In this document: piece by piece, positions 12,179-63,058 of the stretch
Numbering within the stretch: the first letter of the stretch is position 1
How the letters are laid out: each line of letters begins with the position of its first letter
Source: Elusimicrobiaceae bacterium
GTDB lineage: Bacteria; Elusimicrobiota; Elusimicrobia; Elusimicrobiales; Elusimicrobiaceae
NCBI GenBank assembly: GCA_045593185.1
Contig: JAZNWD010000016.1
Span: forward strand, 21,781-85,780
Reading direction: 5' to 3'
DNA length: 64,000 nt
Notes under the pieces: model-generated
Databases searched by the model: none
What the model saw: the letters and a program-made list of their open reading frames with translations, nothing else
What the model was told of the DNA's origin: nothing
Made by a program: the position numbers and the translations under genes

Positions 12179-12286
12179 AACTCCCTCCTATTTTGTGTCA
12201 CTTAATAGTATAGAGGAAAATCGCCCAAAAAACAAGGCCCATTTTAGACCTACCTTTAATTTTATCAAACACTTTTATAATGAAAA

Positions 12287-29828: not shown

Positions 29829-29995
29829 GGGCCTACATTTTACGTCGAAGAACGACCTAAGCGCGGTTTCCAAAAAACTGCAAACAGTCTGCTTAATAAT
29901 AATTATTACTAATAAGCACGTTTGTGTCAAATATTTTGAGGACCTATATTTTTTTATATAAAAAATAAGCAAATCCCCAAAAGGGCCTAGGCCCT
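29829..29995. promoter_or_regulatory. Cluster of GGNCCTA half-sites upstream of nrdD
   Basis: GGGCCTA 29829, GGACCTA 29940, perfect palindrome AGGGCCTAGGCCCT 29982-29995. Confidence 0.45.
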
Positions 29996-30408: not shown

Positions 30409-31413
30409 TTAGAACCATTCCGCTTCCATATCGGGTTGTTCTTCTTGGGCCGCTTGGCTTTTGATGTATTTTACATCGTCTATAATGCTTTGTTCAAACT
30501 CTTCAAAAGCACCGCGGGTATTGATGTACTCTCTATATTTTTGCAAGAATTCGGCAATGGTAAAAGTGCCCCCTTGCACATGCACAGCGTGTGCCGCCAA
30601 ATAAGCCCCGGCATAATGAGCCGTTGTGGGGTTTTGTTGTTTAAGCACTTCATAACGTCTTTGTGCACCGGAAACCACCGGCAAAATAGCATCAATGGCT
30701 TTGTGATCTATAACGCCTTGCGGCATGCGGGCATCTTGCAAGAATTCTTTTTCACTGCCTTCTTGATCTTGCACAAACTTGATCAGCAACGGATCAACTT
30801 GGCCAAAATTTTCAATTTGCTCTAACAGCCTTTGCGCAAGGACGGGGTTCGTTACGCGGGCTCCTTCAATCGCAACACGACCGATGCGAGCTTTTCCGCT
30901 GGCAACTACCAGCCGTTCTACGCGGTTGGCAAAGTCTTCAAGTTCGCCTTGTTCTTTCGGGCGGAAGCGCGGGGCTTGTGTGCGTACAAACGGGATGAAC
31001 CCTTGCCCTTTAATTTGATAAGACGCATAGCACAACGCTTTAGGGGTGGCTTCTTCATCCGTCATAAGAGCCATCGGGTCCGCCATTTGAATAAGGATAT
31101 ATTGCGCGATGTAATAATTGTTTGCCTGTTTAGCTACGCTTTCTAAAAAGTACTCATCTTCCGCGCAACGTTTTTGGATTGAATGCGAAGCTAATGCTTT
31201 GGCTACAACCTGAGGACGTGCCTTGCTTATGTGACGTCCAAGACCAGCAATGACGTTACGTTGTATATTTGTATTCTCTATCGGCCCCAGGGATTTCATT
31301 TCAGAGGTTAAAGCCGGTTGTTTTGCAGGATTCTTGCGAACCTGCCAACGAGCTTGGGCCATCACTGTAGTGGATAAACAGATCAGACCAACCAGGATTG
31401 CTACTCTTTTCAT
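30409..31413 (-). CDS. Secreted hypothetical protein, paralog 1 of a tandem family
   Basis: Signal peptide identical to paralog 2; C-terminal GAYLA...FTI.EF domain. Confidence 0.75.
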   Translation of the reverse strand: MKRVAILVGLICLSTTVMAQARWQVRKNPAKQPALTSEMKSLGPIENTNIQRNVIAGLGRHISKARPQVVAKALASHSIQKRCAEDEYFLESVAKQANNYYIAQYILIQMADPMALMTDEEATPKALCYASYQIKGQGFIPFVRTQAPRFRPKEQGELEDFANRVERLVVASGKARIGRVAIEGARVTNPVLAQRLLEQIENFGQVDPLLIKFVQDQEGSEKEFLQDARMPQGVIDHKAIDAILPVVSGAQRRYEVLKQQNPTTAHYAGAYLAAHAVHVQGGTFTIAEFLQKYREYINTRGAFEEFEQSIIDDVKYIKSQAAQEEQPDMEAEWF

Positions 31414-31527
31414 ACATGTTCTCCTTTGTTGCTGCTTTCTAAATTACCTTACACTATTAGTATAGTGGTTTTTCTTCAAAAAATCCATAGGTCAAAGGGC
31501 CTAATGGGGTATAGGTCTTTGTACCCA
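31354..31527. repeat. Duplicated promoter + signal-peptide module, copy 1
   Basis: Near-identical to 32175-32346 (signal-peptide DNA 59/60 identical). Confidence 0.9.
31488..31527. promoter_or_regulatory. Tandem 16-bp operator-like palindromes
   Basis: TAGGTC-AAAG-GGCCTA (31488) and TAGGTC-TTTG-TACCCA (31512), upstream of a minus-strand TATACT. Confidence 0.6.
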
Positions 31528-31554
31528 TAAAAGCCACCTGTTTTCCCATAAAAA

Positions 31555-31579
31555 AGCACCCCGGAGGAATGGGGGTGCT
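31555..31579 (-). terminator. Intrinsic terminator
   Basis: AGCACCCC...GGGGTGCT with T-tract on the minus strand. Confidence 0.65.
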
Positions 31580-31601
31580 ATAGCATAGTGTTTCGCCTTA
31601 C

Positions 31602-32234
31602 TTACGGCTGCGCACGATGGGGTACATTCTCCAACTGTCTAAGCAGTTTGGCGGCCTCCGGCTTTAGGCGTTGTTCTTCGTTTAAATCCTCCACCAGCTG
31701 ATCGGCAAACTGAAGGGTTTCTTCGTCTTGTTGCTCAATCTTATCCCGGTTGCGGTCTACAAATTCCGGGATGGTAAACTCGTACCCGTCCGGCCCCACA
31801 AACTTGTGTACGGCCAGGTAGGCCCCGGCATCCCGCCCTACTTCTGGGTCGCTCTCTTGCAGCAACCGGTAATCCACCTTAAGGGCCGTCACCAGGTTCA
31901 TCTCATCAATCATTCCTTCCTTCAGGGCGGCCTCGTGCTTTTTTACTTCCTGCACAAACTTTTTAAACAGGTTGATCTTTACTTGCTTAGGCGCCATTTT
32001 CATCTTTTCTCCGTGCGACGTACCGCGTTGCATTTCGGTCACGAGCTGTCTGAGAGTCTCTTTATCTAGTAGAGCCGACGACCGGCCTACCAGCATGCCC
32101 GTCTGGGGATCCACCATAAACTGGGGAGTCTCAACAATACGCGAGTTCCTCGGCAGTTGTGGAGTTCCTATCCGTTGGGCCATCACTGTAGTAGATAAAC
32201 AGATCAGACCAACCAGGATTGCTACTCTTTTCAT
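31602..32234 (-). CDS. Secreted hypothetical protein, paralog 2
   Basis: MKRVAILVGLICLSTTVMAQ signal; KVDYRLL...GAYLAV...FTIPEF...QQDEETLQFADQLVED domain. Confidence 0.75.
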   Translation of the reverse strand: MKRVAILVGLICLSTTVMAQRIGTPQLPRNSRIVETPQFMVDPQTGMLVGRSSALLDKETLRQLVTEMQRGTSHGEKMKMAPKQVKINLFKKFVQEVKKHEAALKEGMIDEMNLVTALKVDYRLLQESDPEVGRDAGAYLAVHKFVGPDGYEFTIPEFVDRNRDKIEQQDEETLQFADQLVEDLNEEQRLKPEAAKLLRQLENVPHRAQP

Positions 32235-32346
32235 ACGTTATCTCCTTTCTGCTTCTTTCTAAATTATCTTACACTATTAGTATAGTGGTTTTTCTTCAAA
32301 AAACCATAGGTCAAAGGACCTAATAAGCCCTAGGTCTTTGTACCTA
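32175..32346. repeat. Duplicated promoter + signal-peptide module, copy 2
   Basis: Near-identical to 31354-31527. Confidence 0.9.
32307..32346. promoter_or_regulatory. Tandem 16-bp operator-like palindromes
   Basis: TAGGTC-AAAG-GACCTA (perfect arms, 32307) and TAGGTC-TTTG-TACCTA (32331), 24 bp apart. Confidence 0.65.
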
Positions 32347-32422
32347 GGGTTTTGCAGTAAATTTTCCACAAAAAAGCGCCCCCCAAAGGGGGAGCGCATA
32401 TACTTCTACAGGAGGAAAGAAC

Positions 32423-39232: not shown

Positions 39233-39324
39233 AATATACCTCCTTAGGTAAAGTGCTATACTGTAGCTTAAGAGGTTTCTTTGCGCAAGCGCAGAAATTA
39301 ATTAGAAACAATCAGCGTGATACC

Positions 39325-39355
39325 CAAGGGATAGCCCAAAGTTTACTGCGCCCCA
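39325..39355. repeat. Outermost att copy (tRNA 3' end plus downstream flank)
   Basis: CAAGGGATAGCCCAAAGTTTACTGCGCCC is 27/29 identical to 45504-45532. Confidence 0.85.
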
Positions 39356-39486
39356 AGCGTTGGACTACCGACGGAGCATGTACGAATTTTCTGCCATACT
39401 TTTCCCAAGTCTGCCAAAGACAGGATTTTTCTGCCATATACATGTGCTGCCATCTTCGAGTGGTTCAAGTTTTTCTAGCGCAGATA

Positions 39487-39525
39487 TAGGCCTTTTTCCT
39501 AGGCGCAAATAGGTCTTTTGGCCCT
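39487..39525 (+). promoter_or_regulatory. Tandem TAGGYC operator-like sites
   Basis: TAGGCC-TTTT at 39487 and TAGGTC-TTTT-GGCCCT at 39510; ATAGGYCTTTTGGCCCTGGTTTT matches the reverse complement near 62860-62882 at 22/23 positions. Confidence 0.6.
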
Positions 39526-39573
39526 GGTTTTATTTTAGATTACTTTTATATTGTAGGTAGAGGAGGGTCTCTT

Positions 39574-40947
39574 ATGAAAGAATTAATAAAAAAGATTGCT
39601 TTTTTATTGAGTTTATTTTTGTGGATTCATATTGCTGCTGCGGCAGGAACCTTTTCGGTATCTTCCGGTTTAGTCCAACCAACCATTTTGCAAAATCAAT
39701 TAACCAAGCAAATTGAACAACAAATTCAAGAGAAAACAGATCGTCCTTGGCAGCTGGCCATCATTTCTGTTTCGCACCCAACAGCAGGAGAATTGGAAAA
39801 ATCGGTTCTTGAAGCTATGGGGAAAAATAGCGCTTTAAAACAAGTTGTTTTGGTAAGAGTATCGTCGGTCCCTTACGCAACGGAATTTAAGAGGGATTTA
39901 AATACAAAACGCATTATTAAAATAAATCTTTCTTCCAGAATTCCCCGGTCTTTTTCTTTATCATCTATACGCCAAGTGCTCAGACGCTTAGATCACTCCA
40001 ATTCAAAATTTTATACGGGCCTGGTAATTGATGCCCATGGTACCGGCAATGCCATGAGTACTATGATGGAAAGTGATAACAAAATCTCTATTCGGAAACT
40101 GTTTGAGGAAATAAAACAGGAAGGAATAAAAATAGATGTATTGGAATTAAAATCTTGTTCCATGGGATCTATTTCCACCTTGTATCACGCAACTAAAAGT
40201 GGCATGGTGGATTATTTGCTCGCTTCACCACCTGTGCTTTTTCAATCTTCTACGGATGTGGGATTGTTGTTTGCGGCCTCGCAAGTCCCGGGGGCACTTT
40301 CTCGCCCGGAGACAGCCGCACGAGCGGCCCTTACAGTGGGGGGAAAGGTTTTTGTTGAAAATATAGAAAAAAATTTAGGAAAGACCATTCCCCCGTTCGC
40401 TACCGCTACAGTAGGTTATTACTTACCGGAGCTATATCCTCTCCTAAGAAACTGGGGAGAATCTTTGTTGGGGATAGAAATTGCTGCAGTGGTTGAAAGG
40501 GAGTCTTTACTTCTTAAAAATGAGTTGTGGCCTATTGATCCGTCGCCTCGTTCTTCTGAGGAAGGAATAATGGTGAGTGAATTGTCTCAAAGGAGAAAAA
40601 GTGCAATGTCTTTTGATTCTTTTTTGAAGAATATACTTAACTATTCTATGGATACCAGCACCTGGGCGGAGGAGAATAAAGAAGCGTATGAGAAAGCATT
40701 TGTGCTGTTCTCAAATGATTCTGCCACATTGCAACGCCATTTAAATACTGCTATTAAGTTTGGACTGTGTTACAAAAATAGGGATTTTTATCCGGCAGCT
40801 AAGGCAGAGGATATAGATAGCTGGCCTGAAGAATGTTTGGGGAAGTTTTCACTTAATTTCGAACAGATGTTGGACCTGACAATTGAGGTACAATCTCATT
40901 TTTCACTTGAAAACTACAAAGAACGCCTTAAATCTACCGACCCATAG
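39574..40947 (+). CDS. Secreted clan CD (clostripain/C11-like) cysteine peptidase
   Basis: Signal peptide; VIDAHGTG (His), LELKSCSMG (Cys) and DYLLAS in the C11 order. Confidence 0.55.
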   Translation: MKELIKKIAFLLSLFLWIHIAAAAGTFSVSSGLVQPTILQNQLTKQIEQQIQEKTDRPWQLAIISVSHPTAGELEKSVLEAMGKNSALKQVVLVRVSSVPYATEFKRDLNTKRIIKINLSSRIPRSFSLSSIRQVLRRLDHSNSKFYTGLVIDAHGTGNAMSTMMESDNKISIRKLFEEIKQEGIKIDVLELKSCSMGSISTLYHATKSGMVDYLLASPPVLFQSSTDVGLLFAASQVPGALSRPETAARAALTVGGKVFVENIEKNLGKTIPPFATATVGYYLPELYPLLRNWGESLLGIEIAAVVERESLLLKNELWPIDPSPRSSEEGIMVSELSQRRKSAMSFDSFLKNILNYSMDTSTWAEENKEAYEKAFVLFSNDSATLQRHLNTAIKFGLCYKNRDFYPAAKAEDIDSWPEECLGKFSLNFEQMLDLTIEVQSHFSLENYKERLKSTDP

Positions 40948-41272: not shown

Positions 41273-41285
41273 ACTTCGCCCACCA
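41273..41285. repeat. att copy (tRNA 3' end)
   Basis: ACTTCGCCCACCA vs ACTGCGCCCACCA, next to a terminator hairpin at 41240-41270. Confidence 0.8.
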
Positions 41286-41448
41286 AGCGGTGTTCTACCG
41301 ACGATGGAGTGACTAAAATAGTGCCCTATTTCCGTATAGTCCTCTATCGTAAACTTTGCTAAATTTATGTGTGTTTTTGTGGTTCCACGTTTACTAGCGC
41401 GGATAGCTAGGTTTTAAAATATGTTACAATGCAACAAGGGAGAAAATT

Positions 41449-42204: not shown

Positions 42205-42260
42205 AATATTTGTTTTTATCATAAACCGCTCCTAATTGGGGCGGTTTTTTCTACCCAAAA

Positions 42261-42320
42261 GCATAAAAAGAGGCCCGCTCTCTTCTGAGAACGGGCCTTC
42301 GTCAATCACTACGCCCACCA
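42261..42320. repeat. Direct repeat (terminator + att copy), copy 1
   Basis: GCATAAAAAG(AG)GCCCGCTCTCTTCTGAGAACGGGCCTTCGTCAATCACTRCGCCCACCA, repeated at 45271-45328. Confidence 0.9.
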
Positions 42321-42447
42321 AGCGATGTTTTCTCGACGGGTATGTACGAATTTTCTGCCATACTTTTTTTGAACTTGCCAAAATTAGTTTTTAAATGCGC
42401 ACAAGATATATATCTATCGTCGACAGGTTCAAGTCGTTACAGCACAG

Positions 42448-45006: not shown

Positions 45007-45270
45007 ATATCACCTCATTTATTAATATAAAATAATTATACTATTTTAATATATAATTATTAATTTATTTTATGAAAAATGAAAATGAATATGTGTATAT
45101 TAAAGAAAACACACTGTAGATATTAGATATTTCTAAAATTGATGGGGTTTATAGAAGACATCATGAACTAATTAATAGTGCCCAAAATAGTGCCTAAAAA
45201 ATGCCACCTTCCTGTACAGCTTAACCTCCTTAACTTTGCTAATCTTGCCAAGATTTTTCGTCATAGAAAG

Positions 45271-45330
45271 GCATAAAAAGGCCCGCTCTCTTCTGAGAAC
45301 GGGCCTTCGTCAATCACTGCGCCCACCAGG
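45271..45330. repeat. Direct repeat (terminator + att copy), copy 2
   Basis: See 42261-42320; ACTGCGCCCACCAGG is identical to 45524-45538. Confidence 0.9.
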
Positions 45331-45452
45331 GGACTTGGTCACAAGTCCGCTCGTTGACCCTCGCGGCTCGCGACCCCGCCTCGCCATGCTCGCCTTTCGC
45401 CCGCGCTCTGCGCGACCTCAAACTCGCATAAGGTTCCGGCTTTCAAGTCCTG
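45327..45452. other. GC-rich structured mini-element bounded by inverted tRNA T-arm-like ends
   Basis: CAGG(GG)ACTTG ... CAAGTCCTG ends; internal hairpin GGACTTG-GTCA-CAAGTCC; CTCGC repeats. Confidence 0.55.
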
Positions 45453-45490
45453 TCGCGCATAAAGCAGTTTATGCGCTGTGGGCATAAAAA

Positions 45491-45519
45491 TTTGGGCTAT
45501 CCGCAAGGGATAACCCAAA
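45491..45519 (-). terminator. Terminator downstream of tRNA(CAT)
   Basis: TTTGGGCTATCC...GGATAACCCAAA with T-tract on the minus strand. Confidence 0.7.
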
Positions 45520-45525
45520 TTTTAC

Positions 45526-45599
45526 TGCGCCCACCAGGACTTGAACCTGGAACCCATCGATTATGAGTCGATTGCTCTAACCAATTGAGCTATAGGCGC
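45526..45599 (-). tRNA. tRNA with CAT anticodon, probably tRNA-Ile2 (lysidine); elongator Met not excluded
   Basis: GCGCCTA acceptor, AGCTCAATTGGTTAGAGC D-arm, ATCGA-CTCATAA-TCGAT anticodon arm, GGTTCAAGTCC T-arm; C4-G69 and C5-G68 as in TilS substrates; no encoded CCA. Confidence 0.9.
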
Positions 45600-48388: not shown

Positions 48389-48471
48389 ATAGCAACACAC
48401 AAAAAATTATTCTAAATAAACAAGGCCTATTTTGGGCCCATATTCAAAATCGCCGTCGTATAACATTAAGT

Positions 48472-48616
48472 GTCATTCCGTACTTGATACGGAATCTTCC
48501 ACGCACGCCGTTTGCCGTTATTACATTAGACGTCATTCCGTACTTGATACGGAATCTTCCACGCACGCCGTTATCATATCAAGCGTCATCCCCAAAGGTT
48601 GTAATTGGGGATCCCC
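48472..48616. repeat. Cluster of three (C/T)GTC-type palindromic (REP-like) repeats
   Basis: 41-bp unit GTCATTCCGTA-CTTGA-TACGGAATCTTCCACGCACGCCGTT identical at 48472 and 48532; third variant GTCATCCCCAA...TTGGGGATCC at 48585. Confidence 0.8.
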
Positions 48617-61680: not shown

Positions 61681-62745
61681 TTATTTCTTTTTGGTCAATC
61701 CCTGTTTGATTTCCCGACGGTATGGGTTGGCATGCAAACCACCGCCATAGCCATATTCGTAAGCATTTCTGAGTATGTCTTCACAATCCCCAAAGACACG
61801 TTCAGCTTTCTTACATTCGCGATACCCTTCCGTGATAGCAAGCCCAATTCTCTTCGCTTGTAGTGTCCGAAGGCCTTCGGTGGGGGCAACCGGCGTTATG
61901 GCAAACAGTTCCCAAAAGCTACGCGTCATAAGCCATTCTTGTCTCCCTGCAAACCACCATGACTTTGTATTCGCGTTGTCTATTACCACATTTTCAAAAA
62001 GCGCCCATTTAACTTTGTAGAAAGTCTTTTTGTCGTTATAAACCTGGGTGGCTTCTTTCCACCACTGGTTCATCTTATGCATTGGACTCGGCTCGTAGTC
62101 AGAAGACATGAACTTTTTAACAATGTCTATTAAGTCCCAATGACGGATTGTAGGATAACTGGGTCCAGGTCCAGTTGCTTTATCAGGAGAAACATTAACT
62201 ATATGTACAACCGCAGCGTAATTCCCCAGGTTTCGCCTTGCCCAGCCGAACAACTGCCCATCTGCCCAAGTGCCTTCATATTTTTCTGCAAATTTTTGCA
62301 TTTTGTTATAATCTAGGTACTTAGGGTTCTTATTGAGGGTAATATAGGATGTTTCCTTTAGCGCCTGCATGAGAGCCTCGGCCGGGGAAACTAAGGCAAC
62401 CGTAGCGCCATCTTTTTTAAAAAAACCGGGTTGTGAAACAGATTCTATATCAATAGAAGGCGGGCATTTCACGTCGTCTCTTTCGTCTCTGTAAGCCCGG
62501 CATTTAGCAGGGATTTGATTTTCCTTGTATGATTTTTTTAATGCACGGCACTGTGGAATAGAATCAAACGCCTTTGGCAGATCCTTCACCCGCCCTTGAT
62601 TTAAATAGGTACGCATCTGTTTAACAAGCTCCTCTTGCGCTTTTTGAGAAGGGGCATGGTCGGTCCAGCAATCCCCTGCTGCAAAAACCGGGACCGCGGC
62701 ACATAAAGCAATGGCACCGATTACTATTTTCTTTATTGTGTTCAT
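61681..62745 (-). CDS. Secreted hypothetical protein
   Basis: Start moved to ATG 62745 after AAGGAG; signal peptide ending VFA; several Cys. Confidence 0.7.
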   Translation of the reverse strand: MNTIKKIVIGAIALCAAVPVFAAGDCWTDHAPSQKAQEELVKQMRTYLNQGRVKDLPKAFDSIPQCRALKKSYKENQIPAKCRAYRDERDDVKCPPSIDIESVSQPGFFKKDGATVALVSPAEALMQALKETSYITLNKNPKYLDYNKMQKFAEKYEGTWADGQLFGWARRNLGNYAAVVHIVNVSPDKATGPGPSYPTIRHWDLIDIVKKFMSSDYEPSPMHKMNQWWKEATQVYNDKKTFYKVKWALFENVVIDNANTKSWWFAGRQEWLMTRSFWELFAITPVAPTEGLRTLQAKRIGLAITEGYRECKKAERVFGDCEDILRNAYEYGYGGGLHANPYRREIKQGLTKKK

Positions 62746-62865
62746 CTTTTTCTCCTTTCCTTGCATACACAACACCTGAGCAAAACGCCGTATAAGCACA
62801 GCTGGTAATTCTCTCCACCCTTTGTAGGGTACATTTTTATTATATTTGTAAAGATACACAAAACC

Positions 62866-62922
62866 AGGGCCAAAAGGCCTATGTGAGGCCCTCTTTTGGG
62901 CCTAAGCAAAAATAGGTCCTAT
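62866..62922 (-). promoter_or_regulatory. TAGGYC operator-like sites
   Basis: AGGGCC-AAAA-GGCCTA (62866), GGCCTA again 23 bp later, ATAGGTCCTAT at 62912; minus-strand TATAAT at the same spacing as for the 39574 gene. Confidence 0.6.
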
Positions 62923-63058
62923 TTCCCATTTGTTATCATGGAGATTTGAATGGGTACTATCTTTCAAACTGCCCGGCTGGATGCCAGCCGCCCCTTATGA
63001 ATGCCACATTCACTGCCCAAACAGCTTATATTTTGCTAGAATATGGGTAGGAGGGTCT

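What the first reader, a model, noticed from the sequence alone, without database searches (positions are those of the whole stretch)
31488..32346. Unrecognised 16-bp palindromic operator TAGGYC-N4-GRCCTA defining a candidate regulon of accessory secreted genes
Seen: copies at 31488/31512 and 32307/32331 (pairs 24 bp apart), 39487/39510, and 62866 plus 62899 (23 bp apart). Looser copies occur upstream of the pilin at 12234-12252 and of nrdD at 29829-29995. In four promoters the proximal TAGG lies 37-39 nt before a TATAAT/TATACT/TATATT hexamer with no canonical -35. The unlinked 39574 and 62745 genes share 22/23 bp. Inference: binding site of an activator, class II-like in position, controlling exported proteins. 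It does not match the NrdR, Rex, Fur, LexA, FNR or CRP consensus as I recall them.
Basis: partly seen in the sequence, partly recalled or inferred. Interest (0 to 1): 0.62.

Follow-up and report, generated by a model that had tools for sequence, protein, structure and literature searches.

The report
Conserved operator of secreted-protein promoters
A 16-bp palindromic DNA site, usually doubled 24 bp apart and set against the -35 position, heads about 50-60 promoters of mostly secreted, fast-evolving proteins in this gut Elusimicrobiaceae genome and across its family. It is almost certainly the docking site of one global regulator, which has not been identified experimentally.

Summary
The four strong loci (31488/31512, 32307/32331, 39510, 62866) are real. 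The loose copies at the pilin gene and nrdD are not standard sites. The 31488 and 32307 pairs are one duplicated promoter.

Genome-wide, a matrix of the motif gives 83 hits, 78 of them intergenic, against 1-9 in simulated genomes. Units lie 23-25 bp apart. A -10 box starts 38±1 nt after TAGG, which puts the dyad centre near -42.5. The trailing TKG is the start of a weak -35.

42 of 50 target genes encode signal-peptide proteins, against 26% of other genes. Most have no Pfam family. The two tested are rare even within the genus, while the motif occurs in 33/33 genomes of the genus and in most other genera of the family.

Best reading: a class II-type activator site for a dimer-of-dimers regulator. 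The motif fits the LiaR-type consensus T(X)4C(X)4G(X)4A. The best candidate regulator is a VraR/LiaR-like response regulator (G000 C32:94040-94741), which is more conserved than RpoD. Binding, activation and transcription starts are all untested.

This scan has noted the same motif in other Elusimicrobia genomes. No paper describing it was found.

The parts
31488..31503 (-). Proximal 16-bp dyad unit (minus strand TAGGCCCTTTGACCTA) of the promoter of gene 30409-31413
   Evidence: Exact pattern match; matrix score 23.1 bits; -10 hexamer 39 nt downstream on the minus strand.
31512..31527 (-). Distal unit, centre 24 bp upstream of the proximal one
   Evidence: Matrix score 20.4 bits; spacing read from the sequence.
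31459..31464 (-). -10 hexamer TATACT for gene 30409-31413
   Evidence: Sequence; lies at the genome-wide preferred offset.
30409..31413 (-). Target gene: 334-aa signal-peptide protein with no Pfam family
32307..32322 (-). Proximal unit (minus strand TAGGTCCTTTGACCTA) of the promoter of paralogous gene 31602-32234
   Evidence: Exact match; 23.9 bits. The promoter region is a duplicate of 31340-31530.
32331..32346 (-). Distal unit, 24 bp from the proximal one
32279..32284 (-). -10 hexamer TATACT for gene 31602-32234, offset 38
31602..32234 (-). Target gene: 210-aa signal-peptide paralogue with no Pfam family
39510..39527 (+). Proximal unit plus TKG (TAGGTCTTTTGGCCCTGG) of the promoter of gene 39574-40947
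   Evidence: 27.3 bits, among the best sites in the genome.
39487..39502 (+). Degenerate distal unit TAGGCCTTTTTCCTAG, 23 bp upstream
   Evidence: In phase but below 7 bits.
39547..39552 (+). -10 hexamer TATATT, offset 37
39574..40947 (+). Target gene: 457-aa signal-peptide protein with a weak clostripain (C11) match. Only distant partial homologues in 3 of 30 genomes of the genus.
62864..62881 (-). Proximal unit plus TKG (minus strand TAGGCCTTTTGGCCCTGG) of the promoter of gene 61681-62745
   Evidence: 26.2 bits; 22/23 identical to the site at 39509-39531.
62889..62904 (-). Degenerate middle unit; only the right half, TTTTGGGCCTA, is kept. 23 bp from the proximal unit.
   Evidence: below 7 bits.
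62913..62928 (.). Third phased unit TAGGTCCTATTTCCCA, 24 bp further upstream
   Evidence: 21.1 bits.
62839..62844 (-). -10 hexamer TATAAT, offset 37
61681..62745 (-). Target gene: 354-aa signal-peptide protein with no Pfam family. Homologues in 2 of 30 genomes of the genus. The 38%-identical homologue in G003 keeps the motif.

Best explanation
The element is the binding site of one sequence-specific dimeric transcription factor. That factor works with the housekeeping sigma-70 polymerase at about 50-60 promoters.

Each unit is a 16-bp dyad, T-AGGN-C-N4-G-NCCT-A. The promoter-proximal unit ends one base into a weak -35 (TKGnnn) and is centred near -42.5. A second unit, often only its promoter-side half, sits 24 bp further upstream near -66.5. 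The pair spans 40 bp.

The most likely mechanism is as follows. Two dimers (or one tetramer) of the regulator bind cooperatively, and the proximal dimer recruits RNA polymerase. This is class II-type activation of promoters that lack a good -35. The result is that a set of Sec-exported, mostly lineage-specific proteins is switched on together. The set includes several peptidases, one small RNA candidate and two small cytoplasmic proteins.

The leading candidate regulator is the VraR/LiaR-like NarL-family response regulator at G000 C32:94040-94741. It is fed by the adjacent sensor kinase and hybrid kinase. This candidate is inferred, not shown.

Shown here: the motif, its geometry, its enrichment, its target class and its conservation. 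Inferred: protein binding, activation rather than repression, transcription start positions and the identity of the regulator.
For: Enrichment:
- TAGGTC is the second most intergenic-enriched hexamer, at 8.5x, against 1-3x for most other TAGGNN words.
- The matrix gives 83 hits at 14 bits or more, 78 of them intergenic. Three Markov-3 simulated genomes give 1-9.

Dyad character:
- Anchoring only on the proximal half plus a -10 gives a bimodal result. Eighteen sites have the full distal half, and 19 look like random background.

Geometry:
- Centre-to-centre spacing between neighbouring units is 24 bp (16 cases), 23 bp (4) or 25 bp (3).
- A -10-like hexamer starts at offset 37-39 in 25 of 39 scored promoters.
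- 22 of 32 strong proximal units have GNCCYA ending 8-9 nt upstream.
- Eight promoters have the ATG of a signal-peptide ORF 6-9 nt after the hexamer. These look like leaderless transcripts, which independently fixes the start site.

Targets:
- 42 of 50 have a signal peptide, against 338 of 1303 other genes (Fisher p = 6.5e-17).
- They are mostly not paralogous and mostly have no Pfam family.

Conservation:
- The strict pattern occurs in 33/33 genomes of the genus and 5/5 of a second genus, with reversed-pattern controls near zero.
- The same architecture and the same target class are seen in G004 and G020 and in a third genus, G059.
- The motif is retained upstream of a 38%-identical homologue of the 62745 gene and a 58%-identical homologue of the 113-aa target.

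Regulator candidate:
- The motif matches the LiaR consensus T(X)4C(X)4G(X)4A. The 40-bp pair matches the 42-44-nt footprint of a LiaR tetramer (PMC4482077).
- The genome has only two DNA-binding response regulators, both NarL type.
- C32:94040-94741 is closest to VraR, LiaR and DevR among solved structures (E = 1e-37). It keeps the K-T-I-K-N recognition helix.
- It is 80% identical between genera. That is the 96th percentile of 900 shared proteins, against a median of 53% and 76% for RpoD. It is about 70% identical across the order.
Against: - No transcription start, expression or binding data exist.
- A repressor could also sit at a fixed position next to the -35.
- A minor set of promoters has the unit 6-7 bp closer to the -10 (offset 31-32).
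- No motif lies upstream of either response-regulator operon, whereas LiaR, VraR and DevR regulate their own genes.
- The candidate regulator is also conserved in sister families where the strict pattern is near background, so its distribution across genomes does not single it out.
- The survey of regulator families was incomplete. MarR, GntR, TetR, ArsR, Rrf2, Fur and others were not scanned.
- A spacing of 24 bp is not a whole number of helical turns.
Confidence: 0.6

Rival explanations
1. The same site is bound by a repressor, or by a dual regulator. It occludes the -35 region and keeps the secretome genes off until a signal releases it.
For: The dyad overlaps the first base of the -35 and could block sigma region 4. 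A minority of promoters carry the unit at offset 31-32, fully over the -35. Many palindrome-binding families are repressors.
Against: The register with the -10 is strict in most promoters. The -35 hexamers are poor, TKGnnn. The upstream helper unit at -66.5 is the arrangement expected for an activator. Repressor operators usually vary in position between promoters.
Confidence: 0.22
2. The conserved block is the -35 or upstream recognition element of an alternative sigma factor. Candidates are one of the two ECF sigmas, or the 390-aa sigma with a lysine-rich tail. On this reading it is not a transcription-factor site.
For: Four sigma-70-family genes are present. ECF regulons typically cover envelope and exported proteins. 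The element is in fixed register with the -10.
Against: The -10 boxes are of the housekeeping TATAAT type. The element is a two-fold symmetric dyad whose halves co-occur. It repeats 24 bp upstream. It serves divergent promoters symmetrically, for example at G000 C34:10082/10108. The ECF sigmas are poorly conserved between genera, at 33-41%, while the motif is conserved.
Confidence: 0.06
3. The copies are non-functional repeated DNA: shared ancestry of duplicated upstream regions, or a small mobile repeat.
For: The 31488 and 32307 pairs are indeed one duplicated promoter plus signal-peptide module.
Against: Elsewhere only the 18-40 bp motif and the -10 are conserved, while spacers, flanks and genes differ. 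The motif persists across genera upstream of diverged or unrelated genes. It is almost absent from coding DNA.
Confidence: 0.02

Closest known systems
LiaR/VraR (NarL/FixJ family) binding sites of Firmicutes: T(X)4C(X)4G(X)4A plus an adjoining secondary site, bound by an activated tetramer (PMC4482077)
   Same: A 16-bp dyad with T, C, G and A at the same four positions. A doubled site spanning 40 bp, against a 42-44-nt tetramer footprint. An envelope-related regulon. The genome encodes a VraR/LiaR-like regulator with the equivalent Lys-x-x-Lys recognition helix.
   Different: LiaR and VraR control a handful of operons, including their own, from sites further upstream. Here about 50-60 promoters carry the site against the -35, and none is at the regulator's own operon. 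The extra conserved bases (AGG/CCT) are specific to this motif. Binding is untested.
DevR/DosR Dev-box promoters of Mycobacterium tuberculosis (NarL family)
   Same: Tandem palindromic boxes with G-rich half-sites. The proximal box overlaps the -35 and is needed for activation (from my own knowledge of the literature). DevR is among the closest solved relatives of the candidate regulator.
   Different: Dev boxes are 20 bp long with a different sequence. That regulon covers hypoxia and dormancy genes rather than secreted proteins. devR regulates its own gene.
Lambda CI at OR1-OR2/PRM
   Same: Dyad operators of 16-17 bp, 23-24 bp apart. The proximal one is centred near -42 and activates through sigma region 4 (from my own knowledge).
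   Different: The CI-like proteins of this genome (HTH_3 plus S24) are not conserved in the family, and one sits next to an integrase. No repressed divergent promoter is involved.
CRP/FNR class II promoters (including PrfA boxes ahead of Listeria secreted virulence factors)
   Same: A symmetric site centred near -41.5 or -42.5 that stands in for a weak -35. A regulon enriched in exported proteins, as for PrfA.
   Different: No Crp/Fnr-family protein was detected: no cNMP-binding domain, and only LexA gives a weak hit to the Crp-type helix-turn-helix (HTH) model. The half-site sequence is different.

Membership tests
Class II (CRP/FNR-type) activator site | Dyad site centred about -41.5 relative to the transcription start | tested here: met
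   The -10 box at offset 38±1 gives a centre of about -42.5. The start position is supported by 8 leaderless ATGs but has not been mapped.
Class II (CRP/FNR-type) activator site | A Crp/Fnr-family protein (cNMP-binding domain plus HTH_Crp_2) is encoded | tested here: not met
   PF00027 gives no hit. The only PF13545 hit (22.6 bits, below the cut-off) is LexA.
NarL/FixJ (LiaR/VraR/DevR-type) response-regulator site | A REC plus GerE response regulator is encoded | tested here: met
   Two are present: C21:20020-20664 and C32:94040-94741.
NarL/FixJ (LiaR/VraR/DevR-type) response-regulator site | Site fits the 16-bp dyad T(X)4C(X)4G(X)4A, with an extended footprint of about 42 nt for a tetramer | tested here: met
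   TAGGNC-N4-GNCCTA has T, C, G and A at those positions. Two units span 40 bp (PMC4482077).
NarL/FixJ (LiaR/VraR/DevR-type) response-regulator site | The regulator's own operon carries the site (autoregulation) | tested here: not met
   No matrix hit of 4 bits or more upstream of either response-regulator operon.
NarL/FixJ (LiaR/VraR/DevR-type) response-regulator site | Direct, phosphorylation-dependent binding of the regulator to the site | not testable with these tools
   Needs EMSA, footprinting or DAP-seq.
Lambda CI-type operator pair | Operators 23-24 bp apart, with the proximal one near -42 | tested here: met
Lambda CI-type operator pair | A cognate HTH_3 plus S24 regulator conserved wherever the operator is | tested here: not met
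   The C3 CI-like protein has no hit in 2 of 5 genomes from other genera, and matches only its N-terminal 67 residues in two of the other three.
LysR-type (LTTR) promoter | T-N11-A box, with a conserved LysR regulator | tested here: not met
   The motif is an even 16-bp dyad. The single LysR gene sits divergent from an aldo-keto reductase. It has no homologue in G059, which does carry the motif.
LexA/SOS box | Sites upstream of lexA, recA and repair genes | tested here: not met
   No site upstream of lexA. The targets are secreted proteins.
Alternative-sigma (ECF) promoter | An asymmetric -35/-10 pair specific to that sigma | tested here: not met
   The -10 is TATAAT-like, and the upstream element is a symmetric dyad that repeats.

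The most novel reading that the evidence does not exclude
The operator is one visible part of a lineage-specific secretome programme with three linked features. First, one envelope-sensing phosphorelay, encoded beside the Flp/Tad-like pilus genes, switches on dozens of fast-evolving exported proteins. Second, these proteins share a basic tag after the signal peptide (PKxPKK, then L-E-R-K-V-like), which might direct them to a dedicated sorting or retention route. Third, many are made from leaderless mRNAs. Alternatively, the regulator may not be a response regulator at all, but a DNA-binding family not yet described.
Probability: 0.15. Interest if true: 0.75.

Novelty: new member of a known kind. 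Interest (0 to 1): 0.55.

Why it matters
Elusimicrobiaceae are common gut bacteria, almost all uncultured, and nothing is known about how they regulate their genes. This motif gives three things.
- A ready-made predictor of a co-regulated set of exported proteins (peptidases and many proteins without known families). These are the likeliest host- or community-interaction factors.
- A promoter model, with leaderless starts, for improving annotation of these genomes.
- A concrete, testable pairing of a regulator with its site.

As a mechanism it is a familiar kind of circuit.

Tried and rejected
- Crp/Fnr regulator: no such protein.
- OmpR-type and AraC-type regulators: none detected.
- LexA box: rejected.
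- CI-like regulators: not conserved in the family.
- LysR: appears to be a local regulator, and is absent from G059.
- Sigma-54 promoter: no conserved GG-N10-GC in the promoter alignment.
- The conserved 113-aa target as an autoregulated transcription factor: no Pfam family, and the AlphaFold model is poor (pLDDT 53, one helix), so nothing could be inferred.
- Presence or absence across genomes to pick the regulator: uninformative, because both NarL-type regulators are present in every family genome searched.
- Rfam search of three motif-driven non-coding stretches: only sub-threshold chance hits.
- Literature: two searches on Elusimicrobium/Elusimicrobiaceae regulation found no description of the motif.
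- My automated target finder for G059 was too strict and returned only 6 promoters, so I rely on the matrix scan instead.

Full report
**Observation.** The strict pattern TAGGYC-N4-GRCCTA occurs twice in the window, at 31488 and 32307, against 0.01 expected. With mismatches allowed, the partners at 31512 and 32331 and the sites at 39510 and 62866 appear. Reading the sequence confirms spacings of 23-24 bp. A TATAAT-like hexamer lies 37-39 nt after the proximal TAGG in all four promoters. Three qualifications apply.
- 31340-31530 and 32160-32350 are one duplicated block, comprising the promoter, the signal-peptide codons and the 5' end of two paralogous genes.
- The distal copies at 39487 and about 62889 are degenerate.
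- The 'looser copies' near the pilin gene (12234) and nrdD (29829-29995) are an off-geometry copy and isolated half-sites. Both score below 7 bits with a matrix built from the genome's sites.

**Genome-wide test.** The window is G000:C16:21781-85780 in a 1.49-Mb, 41-contig assembly. I called genes crudely: 1353 genes covering 88.6% of the genome.
- TAGGTC is the second most intergenic-enriched hexamer after the Shine-Dalgarno word, at 8.5x. Most other TAGGNN words are at 1-3x.
- Aligning its intergenic copies gave the consensus TAGGYC-YWWW-GRCC(C/T). In the promoter-proximal unit TKG follows directly, and another unit lies 24 bp upstream.
- A 22-nt matrix gives 83 hits at 14 bits or more, 78 of them intergenic, although only 11.5% of the DNA is intergenic. 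Three third-order Markov genomes gave 9, 1 and 2 hits.
- The two halves of the dyad co-occur. Anchoring only on the proximal half plus a -10 splits the matches into 18 with 0-1 mismatches in the distal half and 19 that look random.

**Geometry.**
- Neighbouring units are 24 bp apart in 16 cases, 23 bp in 4 and 25 bp in 3. There are 28 two-unit clusters and 33 single units.
- Of 32 strong proximal units, 22 have GNCCYA ending 8-9 nt upstream. The distal unit is therefore often mainly its promoter-side half.
- The best -10-like hexamer starts at offset 37-39 in 25 of 39 promoters, with a minor group at offset 31-32.
- With a 17-bp spacer, the conserved TKG is the first three bases of the -35. 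The 16-bp dyad then covers about -50 to -35, centred near -42.5, and the second unit is centred near -66.5.
- Eight promoters have the ATG of a signal-peptide ORF 6-9 nt after the hexamer. These are probably leaderless mRNAs, which supports the inferred start site.

**Targets.** Fifty genes lie downstream of oriented sites.
- After correcting mis-called starts, 42 of 50 have a signal peptide by a crude test, against 338 of 1303 other genes (p = 6.5e-17).
- They fall into many unrelated groups.
- 20 were scanned against Pfam, and most have no family. The exceptions are an M20 peptidase, a trypsin-like protease, DUF885, a weak clostripain match, PGDYG, and two signal-peptide proteins with a receiver domain.
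- Targets are scattered singly between housekeeping genes.
- Two window targets were tested for distribution. The 62745 gene has homologues in 2 of 30 genomes of the genus, and the 39574 gene has distant partial ones in 3 of 30.
- Non-secreted members include a conserved 113-aa protein, a 38-aa ORF and a candidate small RNA of about 73 nt.

**Conservation.**
- The strict 18-mer occurs in 33/33 genomes of the genus, 5/5 of genus g14 (12-25 copies each), and in g12 and g13. It occurs in 26/32 genomes of g15 at low counts. Reversed-pattern controls are near zero.
- Other families of the order are near background for the strict pattern.
- In two other species (G004, G020) the same two-unit architecture, the same -10 offset and signal-peptide genes recur.
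- I fetched a whole g15 genome, G059. The matrix gives 34 hits at 14 bits or more, 33 of them intergenic. The proximal unit is more degenerate there, which explains the low strict-pattern counts.
- A 38%-identical homologue of the 62745 gene in G003 keeps the motif, as does a 58%-identical homologue of the 113-aa gene on an ENA contig. The flanking DNA differs in both cases.

**Who binds it.** Family scans of the genome found the following.
- No Crp/Fnr, OmpR-type or AraC-type regulator.
- LexA, two CI-like proteins, one LysR and four sigma-70-family proteins.
- Nine receiver-domain proteins, of which only two have a DNA-binding output. Both are NarL/GerE type.

The CI-like protein tested (C3), the LysR protein and the 113-aa protein are not conserved wherever the motif is. 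LexA's own promoter lacks the site. Between G000 and G059 the median protein identity is 53%. The regulator C32:94040-94741 is 80% identical, the 96th percentile, above RpoD at 76%. The other NarL-type regulator is 57% identical and the ECF sigmas 33-41%. The C32 regulator is a single-copy orthologue at 84-95% identity within the genus and about 70% across the order.

Its closest solved relatives are VraR, LiaR and DevR, and its recognition helix reads K-T-I-K-N-H. The LiaR study (PMC4482077) reports three relevant points.
- A 16-bp consensus T(X)4C(X)4G(X)4A, whose conserved G and C are contacted by the equivalent lysine.
- An activated tetramer covering 42-44 nt, made up of a consensus site plus an adjoining secondary site.
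- Contact between VraR and the sigma subunit.

The motif here, T-AGGN-C-N4-G-NCCT-A, fits that consensus. Two units 24 bp apart span 40 bp. This makes the C32 regulator the leading candidate; I put it at roughly 40%. The sensor kinase C32:95866-97731 and the hybrid kinase C32:94764-95882 lie next to it, upstream of Flp/Tad-like genes. Against it, there is no autoregulatory site. In addition, its distribution across genomes does not single it out, and several regulator families were not scanned.

**Rivals.** A repressor at the same site cannot be excluded without expression data. An alternative-sigma element is unlikely, given the housekeeping-type -10, the symmetry of the dyad, its repetition and its symmetric use at divergent promoters. 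Mere shared ancestry explains only the duplicated pair at 31488/32307.

**Comparison and novelty.** By position the element behaves like a class II activator site. By sequence geometry it resembles a LiaR/VraR/DevR-type NarL-family site. By spacing it resembles lambda OR1-OR2. It cannot be filed as a CRP/FNR, CI, LTTR or LexA site, because a defining feature failed in each case. Two literature searches found no description of it.

Earlier notes of this scan record the same motif in other Elusimicrobia genomes, with the regulator unknown. I derived the motif independently before reading those notes.

It is a new member of a known kind of system: a regulon operator in an uncharacterised phylum.

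Noticed in passing
G000 C30:51252+, C34:10082-, C28:9141+, C30:27426-, C22:8381-, C16:5673+ (outside the window): Eight motif promoters have the ATG of a signal-peptide ORF 6-9 nt after the -10 hexamer, so these mRNAs are probably leaderless. Standard gene calling that relies on a ribosome-binding site mis-starts or misses these genes.
   Followed up: partly
G000 C32:6360-6485 (locus L111 61-186): A canonical motif promoter (27 bits, TATAGT at offset 38) is followed by no ORF. Instead there is a transcript of about 73 nt ending in a 12-bp hairpin plus a U-run (z = -5.0). There is no Rfam match, and a separate promoter for the downstream glycosyltransferase follows. This is a candidate small RNA in the regulon.
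   Followed up: partly
G000 C4:62785-64979; ENA contig L025 1093-3345: A conserved 113-aa protein found only in Elusimicrobiaceae (invariant C-terminus GIPxPPxPGKIAYAVYQ, no Pfam family) is a non-secreted regulon member. In two species it lies divergent from an orphan dCache-HAMP-HisKA sensor kinase.
   Followed up: partly
N-termini of target proteins, e.g. window 30409-31413 and 31602-32234: The mature N-termini of regulon proteins are unusually basic. K+R is 18.6% in residues 23-62, against 10.1% in other signal-peptide proteins (p = 7e-8). They often show PKxPKK followed by an L-E-R-K-V-like motif (12/42 against 12/338, chosen after seeing the data). This may be a shared sorting or retention tag.
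   Followed up: partly
G000 C16:5726-6772 and C30:80606-82195: Two regulon members combine a Sec signal peptide with a C-terminal response-regulator receiver domain. That is an odd location for this domain.
   Followed up: no
window 48459-48572; about 45 intergenic copies genome-wide: A hairpin repeat family of REP (repetitive extragenic palindrome) type, GTCATCCTGAAC-TTGA-TTCAGGATCTC, with window variant GTCATTCCGTACTTGATACGGAATC in tandem. It is among the most intergenic-enriched words.
   Followed up: no
G000 C32:148522-149694: A second sigma-70-family protein (390 aa) carries a long Lys/Ala-rich tail resembling histone H1.
   Followed up: no
window 39307-39470, 41273-41303, 42246-42382, 45254-45333, 45486-45532: Repeated arm-like sequences (families D5, D10, D12, D13) flank the region immediately upstream of the 39487 operator. 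I did not examine this.
   Followed up: no
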